This document shows positions 3,527 to 20,991 of a stretch of 35,353 nt of DNA, piece after piece. Location of the stretch: UHGV virus genome UHGV-0105470; one strand, written 5' to 3'. This stretch comes from a virus. The position numbers and the translations under genes were made by a program. The notes beneath the pieces were generated by a model, which was not told the DNA's origin, did no database searches, and was given only the letters and a program-made list of their open reading frames with translations. The first letter of the stretch is position 1; every line of letters begins with the position of its first letter.

Positions 3527-4879
3527 TTATTCGTAAGCCACTGTACCTTTCAAGTCAACATCCAAGATAGCCCCTGCTAAGATACCTGCGAAGGTAACAT
3601 CTTTCAGGATACGAGCTTTCTTGTCTGCCAAAGCAACTTGAGAGGCTTTAGGAACATTAACTGTGTAAGATGACAGGAAGTTTCTGTTGACTGCTCTTTG
3701 TAGAGAGGTTTCAATGACTTGACGAATACGGGTAATACCAGTATCATCATAAGTAATCTTACCACCCTTCTGGTTAATTAGCAAGTCTCTCAGAGAAGTT
3801 TTCAGGTCTGATTCCAACCAGTCAACACCACGGACGATATCAATCCATTCCCCACCAGAAGTAATCCCTCTACGAACCACTGGAACACCACCATCAAGGT
3901 CAATAAAGTTACAGTGACGTGCATCTAAAGCTGACTTCTGAATACTTGTCAGAGGTCTCTTATTAGCTGGCTGTAGAGAAGCAGCTACACCAGTTAGCTG
4001 AGCATTACCCCAAGCAATTGAACCTGCATCATATGGAGCACCATAAGCAATATATGCCATCTCTGGATAATCTTCTGCCGCTGTGTGATGCCACAAGCAA
4101 ACTGTGCGAGTATACATACTCTTAGCAAGCTGTGCTGGAACATCATTTGCACTGTTTAATTCTGTACCTTGTAGTGCTGCTACATCAGAGTTAGCTGTGA
4201 AGAAGATTTTCTTACGAGCCTGAATCTCAGAAGCCATTGCCAAAACAAACTGTTGAGTTCTGTCTTCTGCTGCAATGAAATACCAGTCGGTAGAATAAGC
4301 TTCAATAGCTGCCAGAGCAGTTGACGCTGTATCAGCAGTTGTGCTTGCAATAGACACAGTTTGTGCTGTAGTGGTTACCTTCACGAAATCATTGTCACCA
4401 GCTTTGGAGATGACCATTGTGGCAGAACCGTTGCTACCAGTAACATTGACTGAAACTTTATCTTTAATTGATTGGTCAGCTTCAATCTGTGTTTTAAACT
4501 GTTGTAATACATTCTCGGCAGTGTCTTCACCTTGTGAGGTGTACTGGAATGGTTGTGACATTCCCCCACCGACAGCTACAGTAATTGAGTAGTCTGTACT
4601 TTCGGTAACAGCATCAGGAATTGATACAGTATACTGCATAGCACGTCTACCAATATAAAGCTGAGTTACTTTAGGAGTCTGACTCCAAAGTTGTTTAGCA
4701 GCCTTATATGCAGCAGTATTCTCATCGAAATCTTCAGCAACTTCAGTTAAGGAAGTGTAGCCACGAACTCTTTCTTCAAAGTTATCTGTTGAAGCTAAGA
4801 ATAGTGGCAAACCAAAACCTTCTCTTGTAGTTCCTGCGGTGTTCAATGTAATATCTACATTAACAATTGGATTCCACAT
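3527..4879 (-). CDS. tail sheath protein
   Basis: 450-aa ORF preceding tube gene; size and gene order typical of contractile tail sheath. Confidence 0.65.
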   Translation of the reverse strand: MWNPIVNVDITLNTAGTTREGFGLPLFLASTDNFEERVRGYTSLTEVAEDFDENTAAYKAAKQLWSQTPKVTQLYIGRRAMQYTVSIPDAVTESTDYSITVAVGGGMSQPFQYTSQGEDTAENVLQQFKTQIEADQSIKDKVSVNVTGSNGSATMVISKAGDNDFVKVTTTAQTVSIASTTADTASTALAAIEAYSTDWYFIAAEDRTQQFVLAMASEIQARKKIFFTANSDVAALQGTELNSANDVPAQLAKSMYTRTVCLWHHTAAEDYPEMAYIAYGAPYDAGSIAWGNAQLTGVAASLQPANKRPLTSIQKSALDARHCNFIDLDGGVPVVRRGITSGGEWIDIVRGVDWLESDLKTSLRDLLINQKGGKITYDDTGITRIRQVIETSLQRAVNRNFLSSYTVNVPKASQVALADKKARILKDVTFAGILAGAILDVDLKGTVAYE

Positions 4880-8330: not shown

Positions 8331-9677
8331 TTATTTAATAAGAGATTTTAGAGCATTCTGGAGAGCCAGTTTGCGTTGTTCAGCGGTGTCTTCGGAAGCA
8401 TTCTTAGCTGGTTCTTTTTCTTCTTCAACCAAATCAGCTTCGCCGTCATTACCCACTTCTTCCATAGCGTTGGAATGTTCAAGAACAGCACCAGCAGTTT
8501 CTTTCAGCTTGGTAATTTCTGATTCTTTTTCTTCCATTGCAGAAGCATGGGACGCGATAGTTTCATTAAGTTTCTGGTTAGCACCTTCCATAGCATTCAT
8601 AAACAGAACACTCAGAGGGTTATCAAGACCAGCACCTAAAATAGTCGTTGCAGCTTCTTTTGCATCAAATCCAAAAGCTTCAGCAGAAGCAGAAATCTTA
8701 TTAGTCAAATCTGACAAAGCAGCTTCCTGTTCTTTAGCTTTCATTTGAGCAACCTGAAGACGCAAAGCTTCTAGTTCTTGCTTTTCTTGTTCAGTCATTT
8801 CTTCACCTGAATTGTTAACGTTTAAACTTACAGGAGCCTCTTCAGAACCTTGTAAGTAATTTAAGAAATCATCTTGAGACATGATTGAGTTAATTAAACC
8901 AAGTTCAAGAGCTTCCTGAGCAGAATAAACATTCGCCTCAGTATTCTTTACAGCTTCTTCAGAGAGATTACGAGATTCAGCTACAAAACCTGTAAAGGTT
9001 GCGTAGGTATCATTAATTCTCTTTTGAAGTCTTTCTTTGCTTTCTTCTGAAAGTGCTTGGAATGGTGAACCCATACCTTTAAACTCACCAGCTTTGATGA
9101 CGTTAATTGTTACGCCATTCTTTTCAAATGCCTTAGTTAATTCCTGATGAACCATGATTACACCGATAGAACCAACATCTGCATCTGGTGATGCAATAAT
9201 TTCTTCAGCAGAAGATGCAAGAGCATATGCAGCGGAACAAGCGAACTCATCTACATAAGCAATAATTTTCTTTTGGCCTCTTGAAGCCATAATGTGACGT
9301 GCTAATTCAAAGCAACCTGAAGCTTCACCACCACCAGAATCAATATGCAGAACAATAGTCTTAATTGACTCATCTGCTAGAGCTTCGTCAAAGCCTCTAC
9401 GTAAACCCTCATAAGAGCTTAAACCACCAGTACACATTGCATCAATGAATGTCATACGATGAGTTAAACCACCCATAATAGGGATAATAGCAATATCATC
9501 TTTTACTTTTAAAAGACTTCTTGCTTCACCTTTGGGTTTATCAAAGTTTACTGCTGCTTGGACATCACCCAGCAATCTGTTATTCACATAAGTTGCTGCT
9601 GAGTGAGCTAATGATTCAGTGGCTAGTAAAGGTTGGTTGAATAATCTATCAGCAAGTCTGAAGATATTCGAACTCAT
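8331..9677 (-). CDS. prohead protease, S49 (SppA/ClpP-like) family, with C-terminal scaffold-like domain
   Basis: HIDSGGGE and DEFACSAAYALAS...VGSIGV motifs typical of S49 peptidases; C-terminal 150 aa is charged and coiled-coil-like (QEKQELEALRLQVAQMKAKEQE). Confidence 0.8.
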   Translation of the reverse strand: MSSNIFRLADRLFNQPLLATESLAHSAATYVNNRLLGDVQAAVNFDKPKGEARSLLKVKDDIAIIPIMGGLTHRMTFIDAMCTGGLSSYEGLRRGFDEALADESIKTIVLHIDSGGGEASGCFELARHIMASRGQKKIIAYVDEFACSAAYALASSAEEIIASPDADVGSIGVIMVHQELTKAFEKNGVTINVIKAGEFKGMGSPFQALSEESKERLQKRINDTYATFTGFVAESRNLSEEAVKNTEANVYSAQEALELGLINSIMSQDDFLNYLQGSEEAPVSLNVNNSGEEMTEQEKQELEALRLQVAQMKAKEQEAALSDLTNKISASAEAFGFDAKEAATTILGAGLDNPLSVLFMNAMEGANQKLNETIASHASAMEEKESEITKLKETAGAVLEHSNAMEEVGNDGEADLVEEEKEPAKNASEDTAEQRKLALQNALKSLIK

Positions 9678-12003: not shown

Positions 12004-13620
12004 TCAACGTCTAAGCCCCTCATATGGGTTCCCTCTCACTAAGTCTGTGTGAGCGCCCATTGATGGTGGCTTGAATAATTTAACTTCGTTAAGACTGTTG
12101 AAAGCATCACTGGTAGCATCCACTTGGTCATCTTTAGTTTTACCATCACCACAAAAGCCTTCAAGTTCTTGGAAGTAAGCTTCGTTCCAACTACCTCTCA
12201 AGACTTTTACAAGTCCAGCTTCAGAAGCAGCAGAAAACCCCGCAAATCGGGTAACTTTATCTTTATTTGTTGGTTTAGCTCTTGCTCGATAACCTTTCTC
12301 GGCAAGTTTCCTGATGAGGGATGTTGCGTAGGATTTACCAGCAGCGCCTGGGTCTTGAGGGATAAAAATACCAGTTCGCTTACCGTCACTTTCAGCAGTC
12401 AAATTAATTTGTGTTTCGACTCCAGAGGGTCTATCTCTAAATCTTACTACATCAATGATATAATAGCAACCGTCTTTTTTAGATTTACCCATCTTAACAC
12501 CTGCTGTCCAGTCTGGATTAGGGTTAATCTCAGATGGTAAAGTTGCTGCTAAGTCCCATGCTCTGACATCGAATACATCCTCTGGGAGTGAATCAACAAT
12601 TTCACACCATTGTCTTTGCCAATAGTTTGAACCTTCTGCACGAGCCTTCCAGTTACCGAAACGAAGTCTTGCAACGTTTACAGGAGTGTTGTTTTCCAAC
12701 TTACCACGATATTTAGGTTCTAAGAAGTCAAGAATTGGGTTATCATCAATCGTACCAGAGATGAATGTATATGTTTGAGGAATCTCAAGAGGAAACATTT
12801 CGAGAATCTTGTCTCTCTCCCAATCAGAAACCATAACACCATCATTCATTACATACCAACGAATACGACCACATTTTTCAGAGTCTGGGTAACCTTCTTC
12901 ATCTAAGAATGGTTCTACCCAATCGTAAATAAAGTGGTCTCTGTCTGGGTTCATAGAAATCTTCATGTATGAATCACCTTCAGCCCCAGAACGTAAACGA
13001 GTCTGTAGGTATGAAATCTGTGAAGCAGAGAAGTGCGTACCTTCGTCAAAGTAAATAGCTGAGTATTCAATACCCTGATGACCTTCAGCGTGCTTTTCAA
13101 GTTCTAGATAGGTAAACTTGATAGTTGCCCCAGAAGGGAATGTGATAGTCATCTTCTGCTCGTGAGGAACCCCACCAAACTTACCAAATAGTTTCTTTGC
13201 AGCAGGCCACAAACCACCTTGTAACTGTGTTGTATTTCGACGGAAATAGACAGCATTATAGTTAGGGTCATCAATAAACCTTAAAGAGTCCATTAACAAT
13301 GCAGCCGTCTTACCAGCACCAGCAGCACCACCATAGAGAACCAAGTCGGCATTAGTATTTAAAAAGACCTCTTGAGAACCCGGCTGAGGGGCTACATAGT
13401 TCTTATCAGTCATTAATTTGAAGATAAGTCTAACTTGGTCTGGTGTGTATCTTAATAAAGTCAGAATTTGAGTTGGAAGGAATTTAGAGGGGTCTTTACC
13501 GAATGATTTGATAATTTCTTTTACTTCATCAGAAAGCCCCAACTCTCCAGCTAGGACTTTCCTAACATCTTCCACTCGCTTCTGCTTAACAGCATTTAAG
13601 TCCATTAAGCACCTCCGCAA
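12004..13620 (-). CDS. terminase large subunit
   Basis: 538-aa ORF with Walker A-like GGAAGAGKT near N-terminus, followed by portal gene. Confidence 0.8.
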   Translation of the reverse strand: MRRCLMDLNAVKQKRVEDVRKVLAGELGLSDEVKEIIKSFGKDPSKFLPTQILTLLRYTPDQVRLIFKLMTDKNYVAPQPGSQEVFLNTNADLVLYGGAAGAGKTAALLMDSLRFIDDPNYNAVYFRRNTTQLQGGLWPAAKKLFGKFGGVPHEQKMTITFPSGATIKFTYLELEKHAEGHQGIEYSAIYFDEGTHFSASQISYLQTRLRSGAEGDSYMKISMNPDRDHFIYDWVEPFLDEEGYPDSEKCGRIRWYVMNDGVMVSDWERDKILEMFPLEIPQTYTFISGTIDDNPILDFLEPKYRGKLENNTPVNVARLRFGNWKARAEGSNYWQRQWCEIVDSLPEDVFDVRAWDLAATLPSEINPNPDWTAGVKMGKSKKDGCYYIIDVVRFRDRPSGVETQINLTAESDGKRTGIFIPQDPGAAGKSYATSLIRKLAEKGYRARAKPTNKDKVTRFAGFSAASEAGLVKVLRGSWNEAYFQELEGFCGDGKTKDDQVDATSDAFNSLNEVKLFKPPSMGAHTDLVRGNPYEGLRR

Positions 13621-15132: not shown

Positions 15133-15163
15133 ATTTAAGGACTCTCGTAAGAACCCTTAGAAG

Positions 15164-16725: not shown

Positions 16726-16977
16726 ATTAAATCTTTTTAGAGAACTTCTAAGAACCTAAGCAACAAGGTTCCACAACAAGCTGTAATAACCTTAGAAGCC
16801 CTCTAAAAAGACCTAATTTGGTCTTTGCATAGTCTTGTTTAATCCGGTGACTAGAACCTTTGGAGAGCTTGATATATCTCTTCTCCGTGACACCTACTAG
16901 GTGCTTTATCAGTGTACGACAATACACGAGGGATAAACCGAAAATGCGAGCAAGCATGGACGGTGTAAATCTTATTA

Positions 16978-17067
16978 GGCGGTAAGTAAAGGAGTCGAAC
17001 CCTCACCGTATCTCTACAGTGGCAACAGTTTTCAAGACTGTTTGGCTGCCATTAGCCGCTACCTACC
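16978..17067 (-). tRNA. tRNA-Ser (TGA), class II
   Basis: 90 nt; acceptor GGTAGGT/ACTTACC; anticodon stem ACAGT/ACTGT with loop CTTGAAA; long variable arm; T-loop TTCGACT; 3' CCA not fully encoded. Confidence 0.8.
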
Positions 17068-17080
17068 CCTAATAAGATTT

Positions 17081-17382: not shown

Positions 17383-17629
17383 ATTAATCTTTAAAAACTC
17401 TCTTAGAAAGCCCTTAAAGATGCCCACCTTATTAATCATACCGTGGGCTAGTACGCCAAATTCTTTGATGAGGGATTGGAAGACCTCACTGGTGTTTAGC
17501 CTATCAAGCTACTGCCAGAAAAACATTGTCGTTTGCATTTATTTTAAATTTGCAAAATAGACGCTACGCAACGAAAACTAAGGTTACTATAAAGTGGTCA
17601 CATCTAAATGTCAACAACTTTATTGAAAT

Positions 17630-17863: not shown

Positions 17864-17869
17864 ATTAAA

Positions 17870-18009
17870 TTATCTTTGTAGATAAGCTACCCAGACTTGC
17901 TTAAGGTCTGTAGCGATGTGCCTTGTTGGGTTTAAATCTAGAATTTACCCTTTCACCCTTTGTGGTCGCATACTCACAGGTAAGCTTAATAACTTATCTA
18001 CAAAGATAA
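17870..18009. repeat. 16-17 bp inverted repeat pair (ttatctttgtagataag / cttatctacaaagataa) flanking about 105 bp
   Basis: Exact reverse-complement 16-mers at about 17870-17886 and 17993-18009 inside the tRNA array spacer. Confidence 0.6.
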
Positions 18010-18060
18010 TTACCAGACCGTTGTTTATCATCTTAAGTGCTACCATTACACCAACTCGAC

Positions 18061-18140
18061 ATCTGCCGAGTGAAGGAATCGAACCTTCGCCTTTTCTTTA
18101 CCGGAGAAATAGATTGTTTAAGTTTTGCTGTAAACGGTCT
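18061..18140 (-). pseudogene. tRNA remnant (intact T-arm, no pairing acceptor stem)
   Basis: T-arm GAAGG-TTCGATT-CCTTC and stem-loop TTTCT-CCGGTAA-AGAAA, but no 5' strand complementary to ACTCGGC and C at loop position 33. Confidence 0.35.
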
Positions 18141-18154
18141 TCTGTAAATTTGTT

Positions 18155-18235
18155 GAGCCAGACCAAGTTTTAAATTTTCAAAATTAAATTGGCTTTAAAT
18201 TTTAAGTAACTTGCTGAATTTGGTCTTCTGCTCCT
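18155..18235 (-). ncRNA. conserved spacer stem element in tRNA array (one of four copies)
   Basis: CCAGACC(R) ... (Y)GGTCTTCTG ends with compensatory R/Y covariation across copies at 18011-18145, 18155-18235, 18558-18625, 18714-18796. Confidence 0.4.
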
Positions 18236-18291
18236 TTAAAGAATACTCGTAAGAACCCTTTAAGGGAGGGGCTAAATAGCCCTCTCAAAAT

Positions 18292-18368
18292 TGGCGGTTA
18301 CGATGAGACTTGAACTCACATCATCTCCCGTGACAGGGGAGTATTTTATCCAGTTAAACTACATAACC
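18292..18368 (-). tRNA. tRNA-Asp (GTC)
   Basis: Acceptor GGTTATG/CGTAACC, anticodon stem CTCCC/GGGAG with loop CTGTCAC, T-loop TTCAAGT. Confidence 0.85.
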
Positions 18369-18374
18369 TTTATT

Positions 18375-18462
18375 TGGTGTGCCGTGTAGGAGTCGAACCT
18401 ACCGAGTCTCAATGACAAGGGATTTACAGTCCCCACCGCTACCATCTACGGGATAACGACAC
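18375..18462 (-). tRNA. tRNA-Tyr (GTA), class II
   Basis: 88 nt; acceptor GTGTCGT/ACGGCAC; anticodon stem GGGGA/TCCCT with loop CTGTAAA; long variable arm; T-arm GTAGG-TTCGACT-CCTAC. Confidence 0.8.
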
Positions 18463-18471
18463 ATTTAAATT

Positions 18472-18548
18472 TGGCGGTTAGTCAGGGATTCGAACCCTGT
18501 GCCATTCGCTTAACAGGCGACCGCACATACCTTATGTGCTTCCTAACC
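18472..18548 (-). tRNA. tRNA-Asn (GTT)
   Basis: D-stem GCAC/GTGC, anticodon loop CTGTTAA, T-arm CAGGG-TTCGAAT-CCCTG. Confidence 0.8.
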
Positions 18549-18628
18549 TTAATATATTGCCAGACCGTGTTTTTTTTTCTTTTATCCGCAAAAAGTAGTT
18601 TATTGCTGCATACGGTCTTCTGCAAAAT

Positions 18629-18705
18629 TGGAGGCGGGTGCAGGAGTCGAACCTGCCGATGCCATGCTAATGAGACATGTGAGACGCCCTTTCTCTATAC
18701 CCGCA
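18629..18705 (-). tRNA. tRNA with CAT anticodon (Met or Ile2), second copy
   Basis: Anticodon stem CATGT/GCATG with loop CTCATTA (pyrimidine at 37), T-arm GCAGG-TTCGACT-CCTGC, 1-72 mismatch. Confidence 0.6.
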
Positions 18706-18796
18706 ATTCTTAATGACCAGACCAAATCTCTTCTTTGTCCGATTTAGCTTCAGATGAATAAGATTAAGTTTGCTGTAATTGGTCTTCTGTCAAAAC

Positions 18797-18958: not shown

Positions 18959-19082
18959 ATAAACTTTTCAAACTCTATGTAACCACTTTAACATTATTTT
19001 TTAGTGATTGTCAAGAACTTTTTTAAAATATTTTTCAGTATCTTAGAAAAGCTCTCATTTCGTTTCTATGTAGAACATATTA

Positions 19083-19123: not shown

Positions 19124-20538
19124 TTACCAGATATAACGGTCAACCATTACTGCTTTGAGCATTACGCTGATTGGGTCAAACTTCTCACCACCAAGCAGAG
19201 CTTTTAAAGTGGCTGGAGAGAACCCTGATACCATCGCTACACCATTATCCTTAACAGATACTTCGCAAGTACCATTACGGTTTGCTAAGTACCAGAATAC
19301 TAGTTGTGGCATTTCGTATCCAGCTTTTTTGTACTTACTCTGAATTGCTTCAAAGTTTGTACGACCATTTGCACCATCAACCTGATTAAACTCCATATCA
19401 GAGAAGATAATAAGCTTACTTGGCATATCTTTCTGAGTCAAGTTGTTTCTCTTACCTATCTCAAGAATACGGTCAAAGCTGCTTGTAAGTTAGTTGAACC
19501 ATATTCAACATGACGCATTACCTGACGATGACGGTTTCGTAAATCACCACTCAGTTCAATGAAATGAGGGTTTGTTGAATAGACCATTAACTCATCTTTA
19601 AAGCAACCTGTATTGCGTTCTGCTACATACAAGGCAAGTGATACACCAATATCAAGGGCAGTGATTGAACCAAGATTCACCCAAGACATTGAGCTTGAAA
19701 CATCAGTCATACACAAGATGTTCTCACCTTCTGCCATCCAGTTTGGTAGTGCTTTCCACTGCTCATTAGCAACATCTGCATTACCATGCTTGATAGACTT
19801 AATCACATCGTATGGGTAGACAGCACCAGCATTAATCTTAGCCTCACCTTTTGATAAGGACTCAATGTAAGCTTTGTAGCGTTCTCCATCTTTGCGGTTA
19901 AAGAGCTTTTGGTAACGTGCAGCAGCAAGAGACGGAATCTTACTGTAATCAATCTTACCAAACTCATTAGCAGAGATTTTTTGCTCAACCGTATCAGACA
20001 GTGCAGATAACAGTGTGCGGTATTCTTTCTCGCTTAAGTTTGCAAACTTACAGAAACGTTTTACAAACTGTTTGTGTCGTGGTTTTACTCGTGGTAACCA
20101 CTTGGCTGCTAAACCTGCTGTCTCAGGGTCTAGTAATGCTGCTTCTAAATGCTTAAAGGCATCTGTCTCAAAACGAGTACCTACGAAGATTTTGAAGTCA
20201 TCAAAACGACCAAGTTCTGCAATCTTATCCATAATACGAAGAAACTGTGTAGGCTCTAAAACTTTATCTTCGATTGCTTGAAGTAAAACAGTTCTGAAGG
20301 CTTTACGCTCACCCATACCTTCTCGTACATCTCGCATGTGAAGCAAAATACGAACTGCAACATCAACATCCTCACGCAAAGCTTTGTAGAACAAGTCTGG
20401 TAAGATTTCTACATTGCTACGGCTTGAACCAGCAGCTTTGTAAAAGTCCACAAGAGCAGACATTGATGAAGTATGGTTTACAGCACCATTTTCAGTTCGA
20501 CCTGCATGAAGGTGCGCATGTTTAAATAATTCGCTCAT
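19124..20538 (-). pseudogene. vWA-domain protein gene (Ro60/TROVE-like?) interrupted by a frameshift
   Basis: ORF 19456..20538 carries MIDAS motif DVSSS and ends ...GSTNLQAALTVFLR*; ORF 19124..19441 in a different frame carries the downstream vWA motif LIIFSDMEF; the two frames overlap at 19456-19492. Confidence 0.6.
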
Positions 20539-20619: not shown

Positions 20620-20991
20620 TTATTTTTTGAGAGTCGCTACAGCAGAGAACGTTGGTTTGTTATCTGTCTGTGGTTGACCACCATTATCAGGAGTCTTCTT
20701 AGTGTCTGCTGCAAGTGCTTTCATCTCACCTGCTGAGTGAGTAAAGATAGTTTTACCGACCTCAATCATACTCTTGATGGTTACATCGTCTGTGTTTAAC
20801 CCGAACTCTGCAAGCTTAGCAGCATCCCTTGTAACAATCGCCTCAAACAGCTTTGCAGCAAACTCAGCAGAATTATCAATGGTCAGTTGAGCTTTTACGA
20901 GTGAGCTTTTGTTACGAGAGCCTTTTGGTCTTCCAGATGGGTTTCCAGATTGGCCTTTTTTAAACTGGCCTTTGTTTGTTCTGTTTTTCAT
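20620..20991 (-). CDS. hypothetical basic protein with N-terminal GNPxGRPKG motif
   Basis: 123-aa ORF; N-terminus NKGQFKKGQSGNPSGRPKGSRNK is a motif recurrent in small phage DNA-binding/packaging-associated proteins (recalled, not searched). Confidence 0.55.
   Translation of the reverse strand: MKNRTNKGQFKKGQSGNPSGRPKGSRNKSSLVKAQLTIDNSAEFAAKLFEAIVTRDAAKLAEFGLNTDDVTIKSMIEVGKTIFTHSAGEMKALAADTKKTPDNGGQPQTDNKPTFSAVATLKK

What the first reader, a model, noticed from the sequence alone, without database searches (positions are those of the whole stretch)
18011..18796. Four tRNA-spacer elements with compensatory covariation in a long-range stem
Four spacers (18011-18145, 18155-18235, 18558-18625, 18714-18796) start with CCAGACC(G/A) and end with (C/T)GGTCTTCTG. 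Where the 5' arm has G the 3' arm has C (ACGGTCT), and where it has A the 3' arm has T (TTGGTCT), which preserves a 6-7 bp stem (AGACCR / YGGTCT) across a variable 45-115 nt interior. Covariation points to selection on an RNA or DNA structure, possibly a pre-tRNA processing signal or small ncRNA; one copy encloses a tRNA remnant.
Basis: seen in the sequence. Interest (0 to 1): 0.6.

Follow-up and report, generated by a model that had tools for sequence, protein, structure and literature searches.

The report
Phage Y-like RNAs beside Ro60-like gene
The four repeated "spacers" in this Felix O1-type phage tRNA cluster are most likely small non-coding RNAs (one a tRNA mimic) that partner with a Ro60-like RNA-binding protein encoded just upstream, and the same RNA-protein pairing recurs in many unrelated phages.

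Summary
On the minus (tRNA) strand, four elements (18013-18144, 18158-18230, 18560-18622, 18717-18789) share the layout 5'-AGACCRW / 3 nt / CAGCAA ... WYGGTCT-G-3'. A 7-bp closing stem differs at two base pairs between copies, both compensated.

E1 has the module order of bacterial YrlA Y RNAs: closing stem, hairpin, T arm, closed 7-bp "acceptor" hairpin, D arm. Its helices covary across phage genera.

The same [7-bp stem][3 nt]CAGCAA...[complement] elements, with quite different stem sequences, lie next to homologous Ro60-like genes on the same strand. This holds in 41 of 75 distant viral contigs, and 11 of 12 checked have no tRNA genes nearby.

No Rfam family matches. The canonical Ro60-binding motif (GNCGAA) is absent and CAGCAA takes its place.

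A 2024 preprint noted the Ro60-like fold in Bas63 and guessed that some "tRNAs" were Y RNAs, but identified none.

Verdict: a new variant of the Y RNA kind. Binding and expression are untested.

The parts
18013..18144 (-). E1, the long tRNA-mimic Y-like RNA. Closing stem 18140-18134 with 18021-18015; CAGCAA 18130-18125; anticodon-arm-like hairpin 18109-18093; T arm 18088-18072 (GAAGG-TTCGATT-CCTTC); closed 7-bp acceptor-like hairpin 18071-18054; D arm 18051-18037 (GTGT-AATGGTA-GCAC); trailing G 18014.
   Evidence: Sequence. The MFE fold gives exactly these five helices. Orthologues are aligned. CM R1 scores 162.6 bits. Covariation is counted. Rfam sees only a sub-threshold partial tRNA at 18071-18121 (22 bits against a cut-off of 29).
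18158..18230 (-). E2, a short Y-like RNA. Closing stem 18226-18220 (AGACCAA) with 18166-18160 (TTGGTCT); CAGCAA 18216-18211; A/U-rich interior.
18560..18622 (-). E3, a short Y-like RNA. Closing stem 18618-18612 (AGACCGT) with 18568-18562 (ACGGTCT); CAGCAA 18608-18603. By eye, a conserved U-run/CGG/A-run segment in the interior could form a hairpin.
   Evidence: CM R1 scores 40.5 bits.
18717..18789 (-). E4, a short Y-like RNA. Closing stem 18785-18779 (AGACCAA) with 18725-18719 (TTGGTCT); CAGCAA 18775-18770; interior 5-bp/7-nt-loop hairpin TCTGA-AGCTAAA-TCGGA.
   Evidence: CM R1 scores 36.4 bits.
19124..20538 (-). Ro60-like protein gene (Pfam DUF2828 + DUF7788), the proposed protein partner. 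In this window a 1-nt deletion at about 19477 splits it into two ORFs (20538-19456 and 19441-19124).
18985..19014 (-). Sigma-70-like promoter match (TTGACA-18-TAAAGT with TG) upstream of tRNA-Pro. Likely start of the transcript that carries tRNA-Pro...E4...E3...E2, E1...tRNA-Ile. A second match lies at 19105-19077.
   Evidence: consensus match only. No minus-strand terminator match lies between it and 17630.

Best explanation
E1-E4 are genes for Y RNA-like non-coding RNAs that partner with the phage's Ro60-like protein, encoded 335-1110 nt upstream on the same strand.

Inferred pathway:
1. The elements are transcribed with the first block of phage tRNAs from promoter(s) just after the Ro-like gene.
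2. They are released by the nucleases that process the flanking tRNAs.
3. Each folds into a 7-bp stem formed by its two ends. Next to the stem lies a single-stranded CAGCAA (3 nt after the 5' arm), and an unpaired G follows the 3' arm.
4. This invariant stem/CAGCAA/G platform is the proposed protein-binding site. It would be the counterpart of the GGUCCGA or GNCGAA site of canonical Y RNAs.
5. The variable interior is the effector module. In E1 it is a circularly permuted tRNA mimic (anticodon-arm-like hairpin, T arm, closed 7-bp acceptor hairpin, D arm), as in bacterial YrlA. In E2-E4 it is short and A/U-rich, as in YrlB.
6. By analogy with Ro60-Y RNA-PNPase complexes, the RNAs would gate or tether the ring-shaped protein to host RNA-handling enzymes or tRNA-binding factors. 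This may be part of the counter-defence phenotype reported for Bas63 gp130.

Shown here: the element anatomy, conservation and covariation, the Ro60 fold of the neighbouring protein, and the genomic association across distant phages.

Inferred, not shown: transcription and processing, binding, and downstream function.

For: 2. E1 has the YrlA module order: 5' strand, V hairpin, T arm, non-conserved closed AS hairpin, D arm, 3' strand. Like YrlA genes, it lies within 4 kb of the Ro60 gene on the same strand (PMC4201824).

3. Covariation on 28 CM-aligned elements from 11 loci: 97.6% of cells paired against 67.9% when shuffled and about 40% when slid. 24 of 28 pairs show double changes, and 0 of 500 shuffles reach that. 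The AS hairpin changes completely between lineages, for example ACTCGGC/GTCGAGT, ACCCTTC/GAAGGGT, TTCCCCG/CGGGGAA and TCAGGTC/GACTTGA.

4. The closing stem differs between phages and copies but always pairs: AGACCGT, GGACTGT, AGACTCT, AGAAGCT, AGTAGCT, AGGTTCC and others.

5. Association in 75 IMG/VR loci with 38-47% identical Ro-like genes. There are 55 strict-pattern hits on the same strand within 700 nt of the gene (41 loci), against 3 on the opposite strand. Of the CAGCAA sites there, 43.8% have a perfect 7-bp closing stem, against 5.5% on the opposite strand (Fisher p = 6e-18).

6. The association holds without tRNA genes nearby (11 of 12 loci).

7. In 8 closer loci, 17 hits fall within 4 kb downstream against 0.46 expected.

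8. An independent preprint notes the Ro60-like fold of Bas63 gp130 and its position upstream of the tRNAs, and speculates about Y RNAs (PMC11482910). Bas63 is 99% identical to the window across E1 and E2.
Against: - There are no expression, end-mapping or binding data.
- The closing stem is only 7 bp, shorter than canonical Y RNA stems.
- The canonical Ro60-binding motifs are absent, and no Rfam model matches.
- The protein matches Ro60 by fold only. Pfam TROVE, NCBIfam and PDB sequence searches give nothing.
- The covariation alignment was fitted to the model's structure.
- Within orthologous sets the closing stem does not vary.
- 34 of 75 distant loci, and Vibrio phage phi-pp2, show no strict-pattern element near the gene.
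- In this window the Ro-like gene is frameshifted.
Confidence: 0.75

Rival explanations
1. The elements are cis-acting binding or regulatory sites for the Ro60-like protein within mRNA or precursor transcripts, for example for autoregulation or transcript protection, rather than released stand-alone small RNAs.
For: In many distant loci an element begins only 25-40 nt after the stop codon, or about 100-300 nt before the start, of the Ro-like gene, so it would lie in that gene's UTRs. No independent promoter or terminator is predicted for individual elements in the window.
Against: In the window the elements are separated from the gene by promoter-like sites and by tRNAs that must be excised. 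There are several copies with different effector interiors, including complete tRNA mimics. That fits trans-acting RNAs such as YrlA and YrlB (PMC4201824).
Confidence: 0.1
2. The elements are structured spacers that guide or insulate processing of the polycistronic pre-tRNA and are unrelated to the Ro-like protein.
For: All four lie between tRNA genes on the tRNA strand and are probably co-transcribed with them. tRNA-like shapes can attract RNase P.
Against: The same family occurs beside Ro-like genes in contigs with no tRNA within 4.5 kb (11 of 12). Most tRNA junctions in this cluster (6-10 nt spacers) have no such element. Enrichment follows the Ro-like gene and its strand.
Confidence: 0.05
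3. The elements are decaying tRNA pseudogenes or duplicated junk, and the stem is kept by common descent of recent duplicates.
For: E1 contains tRNA-derived arms. tRNAscan-SE has called a 129-nt 'tRNA-Thr-GGT' across E2 and E1 in one relative. The anticodon-like loop is degenerate.
Against: The termini, T arm and D arm are invariant across three genera while interiors drift. Helices change sequence with full compensation. The same architecture with unrelated stem sequences occurs in phages whose proteins are only about 40% identical.
Confidence: 0.03
4. The elements are miniature mobile elements with terminal inverted repeats, or homing-endonuclease target scars.
For: The ends are inverted repeats. 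Felix O1-type tRNA regions carry several HNH endonuclease genes.
Against: The copies are syntenic across genera and are not dispersed elsewhere in the 35-kb window. There are no target-site duplications. The 'TIRs' are 7 nt and differ between phages while staying complementary, which is a constraint at the RNA level.
Confidence: 0.02

Closest known systems
Bacterial and phage YrlA/YrlB Y RNAs bound by Ro60 (Rsr) (Chen et al. 2014, PMC4201824)
   Same: Both are encoded within a few kb of a Ro60-fold protein on the same strand. The 5' and 3' ends pair. There are several paralogues per locus. One paralogue (E1) carries a tRNA-like domain in the same permuted order: V hairpin, T arm, closed acceptor-like hairpin that is not conserved in sequence, D arm. 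The others are short, like YrlB.
   Different: The conserved motif is CAGCAA placed 3 nt after a 7-bp stem, not GNCGAAN0-1G or GGUCCGA. The stem is much shorter. The protein is a DUF2828/DUF7788 family member detectable as Ro60 only by structure. The genes are embedded in a tRNA operon. No Rfam model matches them.
Thermus phage phiLo Ro60 with Yrl1/Yrl2 (PMC12135203; PDB 9KOP, 9L5Y)
   Different: The phiLo RNAs lie upstream of the gene and were recognised by a CGAA motif in an internal bulge. Binding and PNPase recruitment were shown experimentally there; nothing comparable is shown here.
Bas63 (Felixounavirus) gp130 (PhageMaP preprint, PMC11482910)
   Same: It is the same gene family and the same genomic position. 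The authors noted the Ro60-like fold, the location directly upstream of the tRNAs, and a counter-defence phenotype against 'ppl'.
   Different: They only speculated that some annotated tRNA genes might be Y RNAs. The candidates found here are un-annotated spacers, not the annotated tRNAs.
Circularly permuted tRNA genes (Cyanidioschyzon merolae) and two-piece (permuted) tmRNA
   Same: The E1 tRNA-like module has its 3' half before its 5' half, and the acceptor ends are joined by a short loop.
   Different: The anticodon-like loop is not conserved: C33, a 6-nt loop, or changed triplets in relatives. There is no encoded CCA. An extra closing stem and the CAGCAA motif are present. The Rfam permuted-tmRNA model gives only a sub-threshold hit elsewhere in the cluster.

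Membership tests
Y RNA (YrlA/YrlB type) | Encoded close to (<4 kb) and on the same strand as a Ro60 orthologue | tested here: met
   E4-E1 lie 335-1110 nt downstream of the Ro-like gene stop (19124) on the minus strand. The same holds in 41 of 75 distant loci within 700 nt.
Y RNA (YrlA/YrlB type) | Partner protein has the Ro60 architecture (TROVE HEAT-repeat ring + vWA domain) | tested here: met
Y RNA (YrlA/YrlB type) | 5' and 3' ends base-pair into a stem that closes a large internal loop or effector module | tested here: met
   A 7-bp stem appears in every MFE fold. It covaries between paralogues and phages: 99.5% of cells paired, and all 7 pairs show double changes. It is shorter than canonical Y stems.
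Y RNA (YrlA/YrlB type) | Conserved Ro60-binding sequence (GGUCCGA bulged helix, or GNCGAAN0-1G near the 5' end) | tested here: not met
   Neither motif is present at the 5' side of E1-E4. A GGCGAAG in window E1 lies in the variable region/T stem and is not conserved in FelixO1, SUSP1 or M719. The conserved motif is CAGCAA instead.
Y RNA (YrlA/YrlB type) | tRNA-like domain with T arm, closed acceptor-like stem and D arm in at least one paralogue | tested here: met
   E1 has T arm GAAGG-TTCGATT-CCTTC, a 7-bp AS hairpin and D arm GTGT-AATGGTA-GCAC. Equivalent long members occur in L133-L136 and in IMG/VR loci.
Y RNA (YrlA/YrlB type) | Physically bound by the Ro60 protein; stable small RNA in vivo | not testable with these tools
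   No RNA-seq, RIP or EMSA data are available here.
Any Rfam 15 family (including Y RNA models) | Covariance-model score at or above the gathering threshold | tested here: not met
   Only a partial tRNA hit (22 bits, below 29) falls inside E1. Nothing else hits E1-E4 at E<=10. Eight distant loci gave only tRNA hits at gathering thresholds; one of these (L168 4253-4324) lies inside a stem/CAGCAA element whose interior is a non-permuted tRNA body.
tRNA gene | Cloverleaf with open acceptor stem in canonical order and a 7-nt anticodon loop | tested here: not met
   ARAGORN calls none of E1-E4. E1 is permuted with a closed acceptor hairpin, and its anticodon-like loop is not conserved.
Pre-tRNA processing signal / tRNA-operon spacer element | Occurrence tied to tRNA gene junctions | tested here: not met
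   11 of 12 distant loci carrying the element next to the Ro-like gene have no tRNA gene within 4.5 kb.
MITE-like mobile element | Dispersed copies with terminal inverted repeats and target-site duplications; presence/absence polymorphism | tested here: not met
   There are only four copies, all in one place and syntenic across genera. No flanking direct repeats are seen.

The most novel reading that the evidence does not exclude
DUF2828/DUF7788 proteins and stem/CAGCAA RNAs together form a large, so far undescribed phage ribonucleoprotein family. It would be a divergent branch of Ro60-Y RNA particles with its own RNA recognition code and interchangeable effector modules, often tRNA mimics that are permuted or not. 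Phages would use it to subvert host RNA decay, tRNA-targeting immunity or other defences such as 'ppl'. In Felix O1-type phages the RNAs are produced by piggy-backing on tRNA-operon processing.
Probability: 0.55. Interest if true: 0.8.

Novelty: new variant of a known kind. Interest (0 to 1): 0.7.

Why it matters
Ro60-Y RNA particles are well studied in animals and a few bacteria, but their roles in phages are barely explored.

- **Candidate RNA partners.** This analysis gives concrete candidates, with exact coordinates and a simple recognisable signature, for a Ro60-like protein family. That family has at least 2,536 homologues at E<=1e-5 in the protein search and is currently annotated only as DUF2828 or 'RNA-binding protein'.
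- **A testable hypothesis.** It turns a published speculation (Bas63 gp130, a counter-defence gene) into a directly testable one: do E1-E4 bind gp130, and are they needed for its phenotype?
- **A different recognition motif.** CAGCAA next to a short stem, rather than GGUCCGA or GNCGAA, would broaden what counts as a Y RNA.
- **Annotation errors explained.** It accounts for the spurious small ORFs and the 129-nt 'tRNA-Thr' calls in Felix O1-type phage genomes.

Tried and rejected
- **Rfam.** Scans of the cluster, of the 0.8-kb region at E<=10, and of eight distant loci matched no family for the elements as such; the only hits inside an element were tRNA-model matches to tRNA-like interiors.
- **Promoter reading.** TTGACA/TTTACA/TTTGCA lies just 5' of three copies. 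I rejected this because that sequence is the generic CCA-AWTTT tRNA trailer, the -10 regions are poor, and it leaves the conserved 3' arm unexplained. The promoter scan finds no site at the elements.
- **Coding.** Only short antisense or overlapping ORFs are present, and these also overlap tRNA genes. Interior indels are not multiples of three.
- **IMG/VR scan with the Felix-specific 5' motif.** It returned mostly single chance matches. Only Felix-like contigs had four.
- **RNAalifold on orthologous sets of E2, E3 and E4.** It recovered only the closing stem, with no covariation within orthologues. The internal hairpins are A/U-rich and remain weakly supported.
- **Sequence-level links of the protein to Ro60.** PDB phmmer, NCBIfam and Pfam at E<=10 all failed. 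Only the structure comparison worked.
- **Vibrio phage phi-pp2 (L131).** No stem/CAGCAA element lies near its DUF2828 gene.
- **E1 as a decoding permuted tRNA-Thr(GGU).** I consider this unlikely because the anticodon loop is not conserved.
- **Two Wolin-lab reviews.** They were not available in the library.
Full report
**Context.** The window comes from a Felix O1-type myovirus (Felixounavirus). The 1.1-kb region around the finding is 96-98% identical to many Escherichia and Salmonella phages, including FelixO1. ARAGORN finds 26 tRNA genes, all on the minus strand, between 14050 and 18958. The finding has to be read on the minus strand.

**Observation.** On the minus strand the four spacers read as follows:
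- E4 (18789-18717): cagaAGACCAAttaCAGCAA...TTGGTCTgg
- E3 (18622-18560): cagaAGACCGTatgCAGCAA...ACGGTCTgg
- E2 (18230-18158): cagaAGACCAAattCAGCAA...TTGGTCTgg
- E1 (18144-18013): cagaAGACCGTttaCAGCAA...ACGGTCTgg

Exact AGAAGACCR and exact YGGTCTGG occur on the minus strand only at these four places (YGGTCTGG has one further exact match, on the plus strand at 13436). The closing stem is 7 bp. Two of its pairs differ between the E1/E3 type and the E2/E4 type, and both changes are compensated. Every single-sequence MFE fold closes this stem. It was incomplete in three respects: the strand, the invariant CAGCAA exactly 3 nt after the 5' arm, and the unpaired G after the 3' arm.

**Conservation.** About 250 phage records hold the E1-E2 stretch. 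I extracted the elements from FelixO1, ASO1B, phiSUSP1 (Suspvirus), Michonne, HP1, Sf18 and Henu11 (Mooglevirus), pEC-M719 and several IMG/VR contigs.
- Most loci retain all four elements at syntenic positions, and every copy recovered has identical termini.
- Interiors diverge strongly. For example, E3 of the window and E3 of FelixO1 are barely alignable inside. The indels are not multiples of three.
- Within orthologous sets the closing stem is invariant. RNAalifold finds only that stem there.

**E1 is a permuted tRNA mimic, not a remnant.** Its modules, 5' to 3', are:
1. closing-stem 5' arm
2. CAGCAA
3. a 15-nt linker
4. a 5-bp/7-nt-loop hairpin (TTTCT-CCGGTAA-AGAAA)
5. 4 nt
6. a canonical T arm (GAAGG-TTCGATT-CCTTC)
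7. a 7-bp hairpin (ACTCGGC-AGAT-GTCGAGT)
8. TG
9. a canonical D arm (GTGT-AATGGTA-GCAC)
10. a 15-nt linker
11. closing-stem 3' arm

The MFE fold gives exactly this arrangement. This is a tRNA cloverleaf that has been circularly permuted. The acceptor ends are joined by a loop, and new ends are opened between the D arm and the anticodon arm.

Across genera the T arm, D arm and termini are invariant. The acceptor-like hairpin changes sequence completely but stays paired: ACTCGGC/GTCGAGT, ACACGTT/GGCGTGT, ACCCTTC/GAAGGGT. The anticodon-like loop is not conserved. It has C33 in the window, 6 nt in FelixO1, GAU in Henu11 and CAA in M719. That argues against a decoding role.

ARAGORN does not call E1. 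Rfam's tRNA model gives only 22 bits, below the cut-off of 29, over the hairpin and T arm. In one relative tRNAscan-SE produced a 129-nt 'tRNA-Thr-GGT' spanning parts of E2 and E1. I regard that as an artefact.

**The neighbouring gene.** Immediately upstream of the tRNA cluster on the same strand lies a gene of about 471 codons (19124-20538). RefSeq calls it 'RNA-binding protein' in FelixO1. Pfam sees only DUF2828 and DUF7788. NCBIfam and PDB sequence searches give nothing.

I modelled a homologue 98% identical to the FelixO1 protein using a 38-sequence alignment. The model has pLDDT 89 and pTM 0.89.
- Foldseek against the PDB returns Ro60/TROVE proteins as the top 12 hits, all at full length: Xenopus and human Ro60, D. 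radiodurans Rsr, and Thermus phage phiLo Ro60 (E 3e-8 to 3e-6, TM up to 0.66).

The gene therefore encodes a Ro60-fold protein, a HEAT ring plus a vWA domain.

**Link to Y RNAs.** Chen et al. 2014 (PMC4201824) describe bacterial and phage Y RNAs as follows.
- They are encoded within 4 kb of Ro60 on the same strand.
- YrlA has the order: 5' strand with a Ro60-binding motif, V hairpin, T arm, AS hairpin (not conserved in sequence, corresponding to a closed acceptor stem), D arm, 3' strand.
- The shorter YrlB shares only the binding motif.

E1 reproduces the YrlA order exactly, and E2-E4 resemble YrlB. The difference is the motif. GNCGAAN0-1G and GGUCCGA are absent, and CAGCAA next to a short stem is what all copies share.

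**Test in more distant phages.** I fetched neighbourhoods of Ro-like homologues at 47-63% identity. I then scanned for a strict pattern: 7 nt, then 3 nt, then CAGCAA, then 20-150 nt, then the 7-nt complement.
- 17 hits fall within 4 kb downstream on the gene's strand in 8 loci, against 0.46 expected from dinucleotide shuffles (maximum 2).
- Only one hit lies elsewhere on that strand, and none on the opposite strand.
- The stems are different sequences in each phage and copy: GGACTGT/ACAGTCC, AGACTAT/GTAGTCT, AGTGTCT/GGACACT, AGACTCT/AGAGTCT, AGAAGAA/TTCTTCT, AGAAGCT/AGCTTCT, AGTAGCT/AGCTACT, AGAAGGT/ACCTTCT, AGAAGCA/TGCTTCT.
- Several elements carry T arm, AS hairpin and D arm modules.

A covariance model built from the Ounavirinae E1 alignment recovers such long members at 50-83 bits in those loci. 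On the 28-sequence model-fitted alignment:
- 97.6% of cells pair, against 67.9% in shuffles and about 40% when partners are slid.
- 24 of 28 pairs show changes on both sides, and 0 of 500 shuffles reach that.
- All 7 closing-stem pairs and all 7 AS pairs show double changes.

The caveat is that this alignment is fitted to the model's structure.

**Wider association.** Among 75 IMG/VR loci with Ro-like genes only 38-47% identical to the query protein:
- 55 strict-pattern elements lie on the gene's strand within 700 nt of the gene, in 41 loci, often starting 25-40 nt after the stop codon. Only 3 lie on the opposite strand in the same zones.
- A test that does not presuppose pairing gives the same answer. 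Of 121 CAGCAA hexamers near the gene on its strand, 43.8% have a perfect 7-bp closing stem. Of 237 on the opposite strand, 5.5% do (Fisher p = 6e-18).
- The family consensus is 5'-A-G-R-N-U-N-N / n-U-w / CAGCAA ... N-N-A-N-Y-C-U / G-3'.
- 11 of 12 such loci have no tRNA gene within 4.5 kb. The element goes with the Ro-like gene, not with tRNA clusters.
- Rfam finds only tRNAs in eight of these loci at gathering thresholds.

**Transcription context (inferred).** Sigma-70-like matches on the minus strand lie at 19105-19077 and 19014-18985, between the Ro-like gene and tRNA-Pro, and at 17614-17586. No minus-strand terminator match lies within this stretch. E1-E4 are therefore probably part of one precursor running from tRNA-Pro to tRNA-Ile, released by tRNA-processing nucleases. 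The acceptor-like hairpin of E1 is 7 bp, as it is in most of the long members recovered from distant phages. According to Chen et al., this is the feature that makes M. smegmatis YrlA an RNase P substrate. Cleavage in that loop is possible but untested.

**Literature.**
- The PhageMaP preprint (PMC11482910) reports three things about Bas63 gp130: it is structurally similar to Ro60, it lies directly upstream of the tRNA stretch, and it counters the 'ppl' defence system. Bas63 is phage JohannRWettstein, 99% identical to the window across E1 and E2. [quoted passage not shown]
- Thermus phage phiLo Ro60 binds two adjacent Y-like RNAs and host PNPase (PMC12135203).
- Searches for DUF2828, Felixounavirus+Ro60, Ro60-like+phage+tRNA, and Y RNA+phage+TROVE found no description of these elements.

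**Conclusion.** The best-supported reading is that E1-E4 are Y RNA-like genes for a divergent, phage-borne Ro60 family. They work like Y RNAs and share the YrlA/YrlB architecture. They fail the sequence-motif criterion and match no Rfam model, so I class them as a new variant of a known kind rather than members of the described YrlA family.

The genomic, structural and covariation evidence is strong. Transcription, processing, binding and function remain inferred. Rival readings are weaker:
- cis-regulatory protein-binding sites (about 0.1)
- tRNA-processing spacers (about 0.05)
- pseudogenes (about 0.03)
- mobile elements (about 0.02)

Noticed in passing
window 19477-19478 (minus-strand gene 19124-20538): The Ro60-like gene carries a 1-nt deletion in a T run (TTTT to TTT on the coding strand) relative to FelixO1. 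This splits it into ORFs of 360 and 105 aa. None of 180 related phage records shares the deletion; the best hits are 99.2% identical with a 122-nt span against the 121-nt query. It is either a sequencing error or a very recent inactivation.
   Followed up: partly
window 17866-18012 (minus strand), between E1 and tRNA-Lys(ttt): A further structured element of about 145 nt is closed by a 22-bp long-range stem (arms 17868-17889 and 17990-18011). Inside is a hairpin CAGAC-CTTAAGCAA-GTCTG. Both helices show compensatory changes between Felixounavirus and Suspvirus/Mooglevirus. It lacks the stem/3-nt/CAGCAA signature. It could be another ncRNA of the same locus.
   Followed up: partly
window 18236-18290, also 15134-15158 and 17390-17414: A repeated 24-25-nt motif (TTTAAGGACTCTCGTAAGAACCCT-like on the + strand) sits in three spacers of the tRNA cluster. 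At 18236-18290 it is part of two adjacent hairpins between tRNA-Asp and E2.
   Followed up: no
window 16967-16979 / 17068-17080 and 16726-16752 / 16791-16817: A perfect 13-nt inverted repeat brackets tRNA-Ser(tga) exactly. Next to tRNA-Leu(tag) lies a 27-nt inverted repeat with 85% complementary arms and a 38-nt interior. These may be processing stems or further structured spacers.
   Followed up: no
L002 1705-1833 (phage ASO1B), equivalent to window ~18064-18192: The deposited annotation has a 129-nt 'tRNA-Thr-GGT' from tRNAscan-SE. It starts inside E2 and ends at the acceptor-like 3' strand of E1. It is most likely a mis-call caused by E1's tRNA-like arms. Other records annotate small 'hypothetical proteins' over E1 and E2.
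   Followed up: partly
L001 2103-2171 (FelixO1), between tRNA-Asn and tRNA-Tyr: FelixO1 and several Salmonella phages carry an insertion of about 62 nt here (GGAGAGAAGCGATTGCTCACCGATTTGTAAGGTGCAAGTCCTTAGCC...). It is absent from the window.
   Followed up: no
L168 4234-4334: In one distant contig a stem/CAGCAA element encloses a non-permuted tRNA body. D arm, anticodon arm and T arm are present (Rfam tRNA, 52.9 bits at 4253-4324), and the closing stem takes the place of the acceptor stem. The tRNA-like effector module therefore comes in both permuted and non-permuted forms.
   Followed up: partly
L130 ~9010-9160 and ~9350-9395 (Yersinia phage vB_YenM_P778): Further tRNA-like pieces lie in a 690-nt gap of that phage's tRNA cluster. 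They have T arms GAGGGTTCGATTCCCTC and TTGGGTTCGATTCCCTA, and one has a matching 7-bp acceptor pairing around an insert of about 100 nt. ARAGORN calls none of them.
   Followed up: no
window 20620-20991 (minus strand): A DUF5681 gene sits directly upstream of the Ro60-like gene here and in the Ounavirinae-like loci L130 and L132-L134. It is absent from the 143-149-kb contigs L135 and L136. It may be a lineage-specific companion gene.
   Followed up: no
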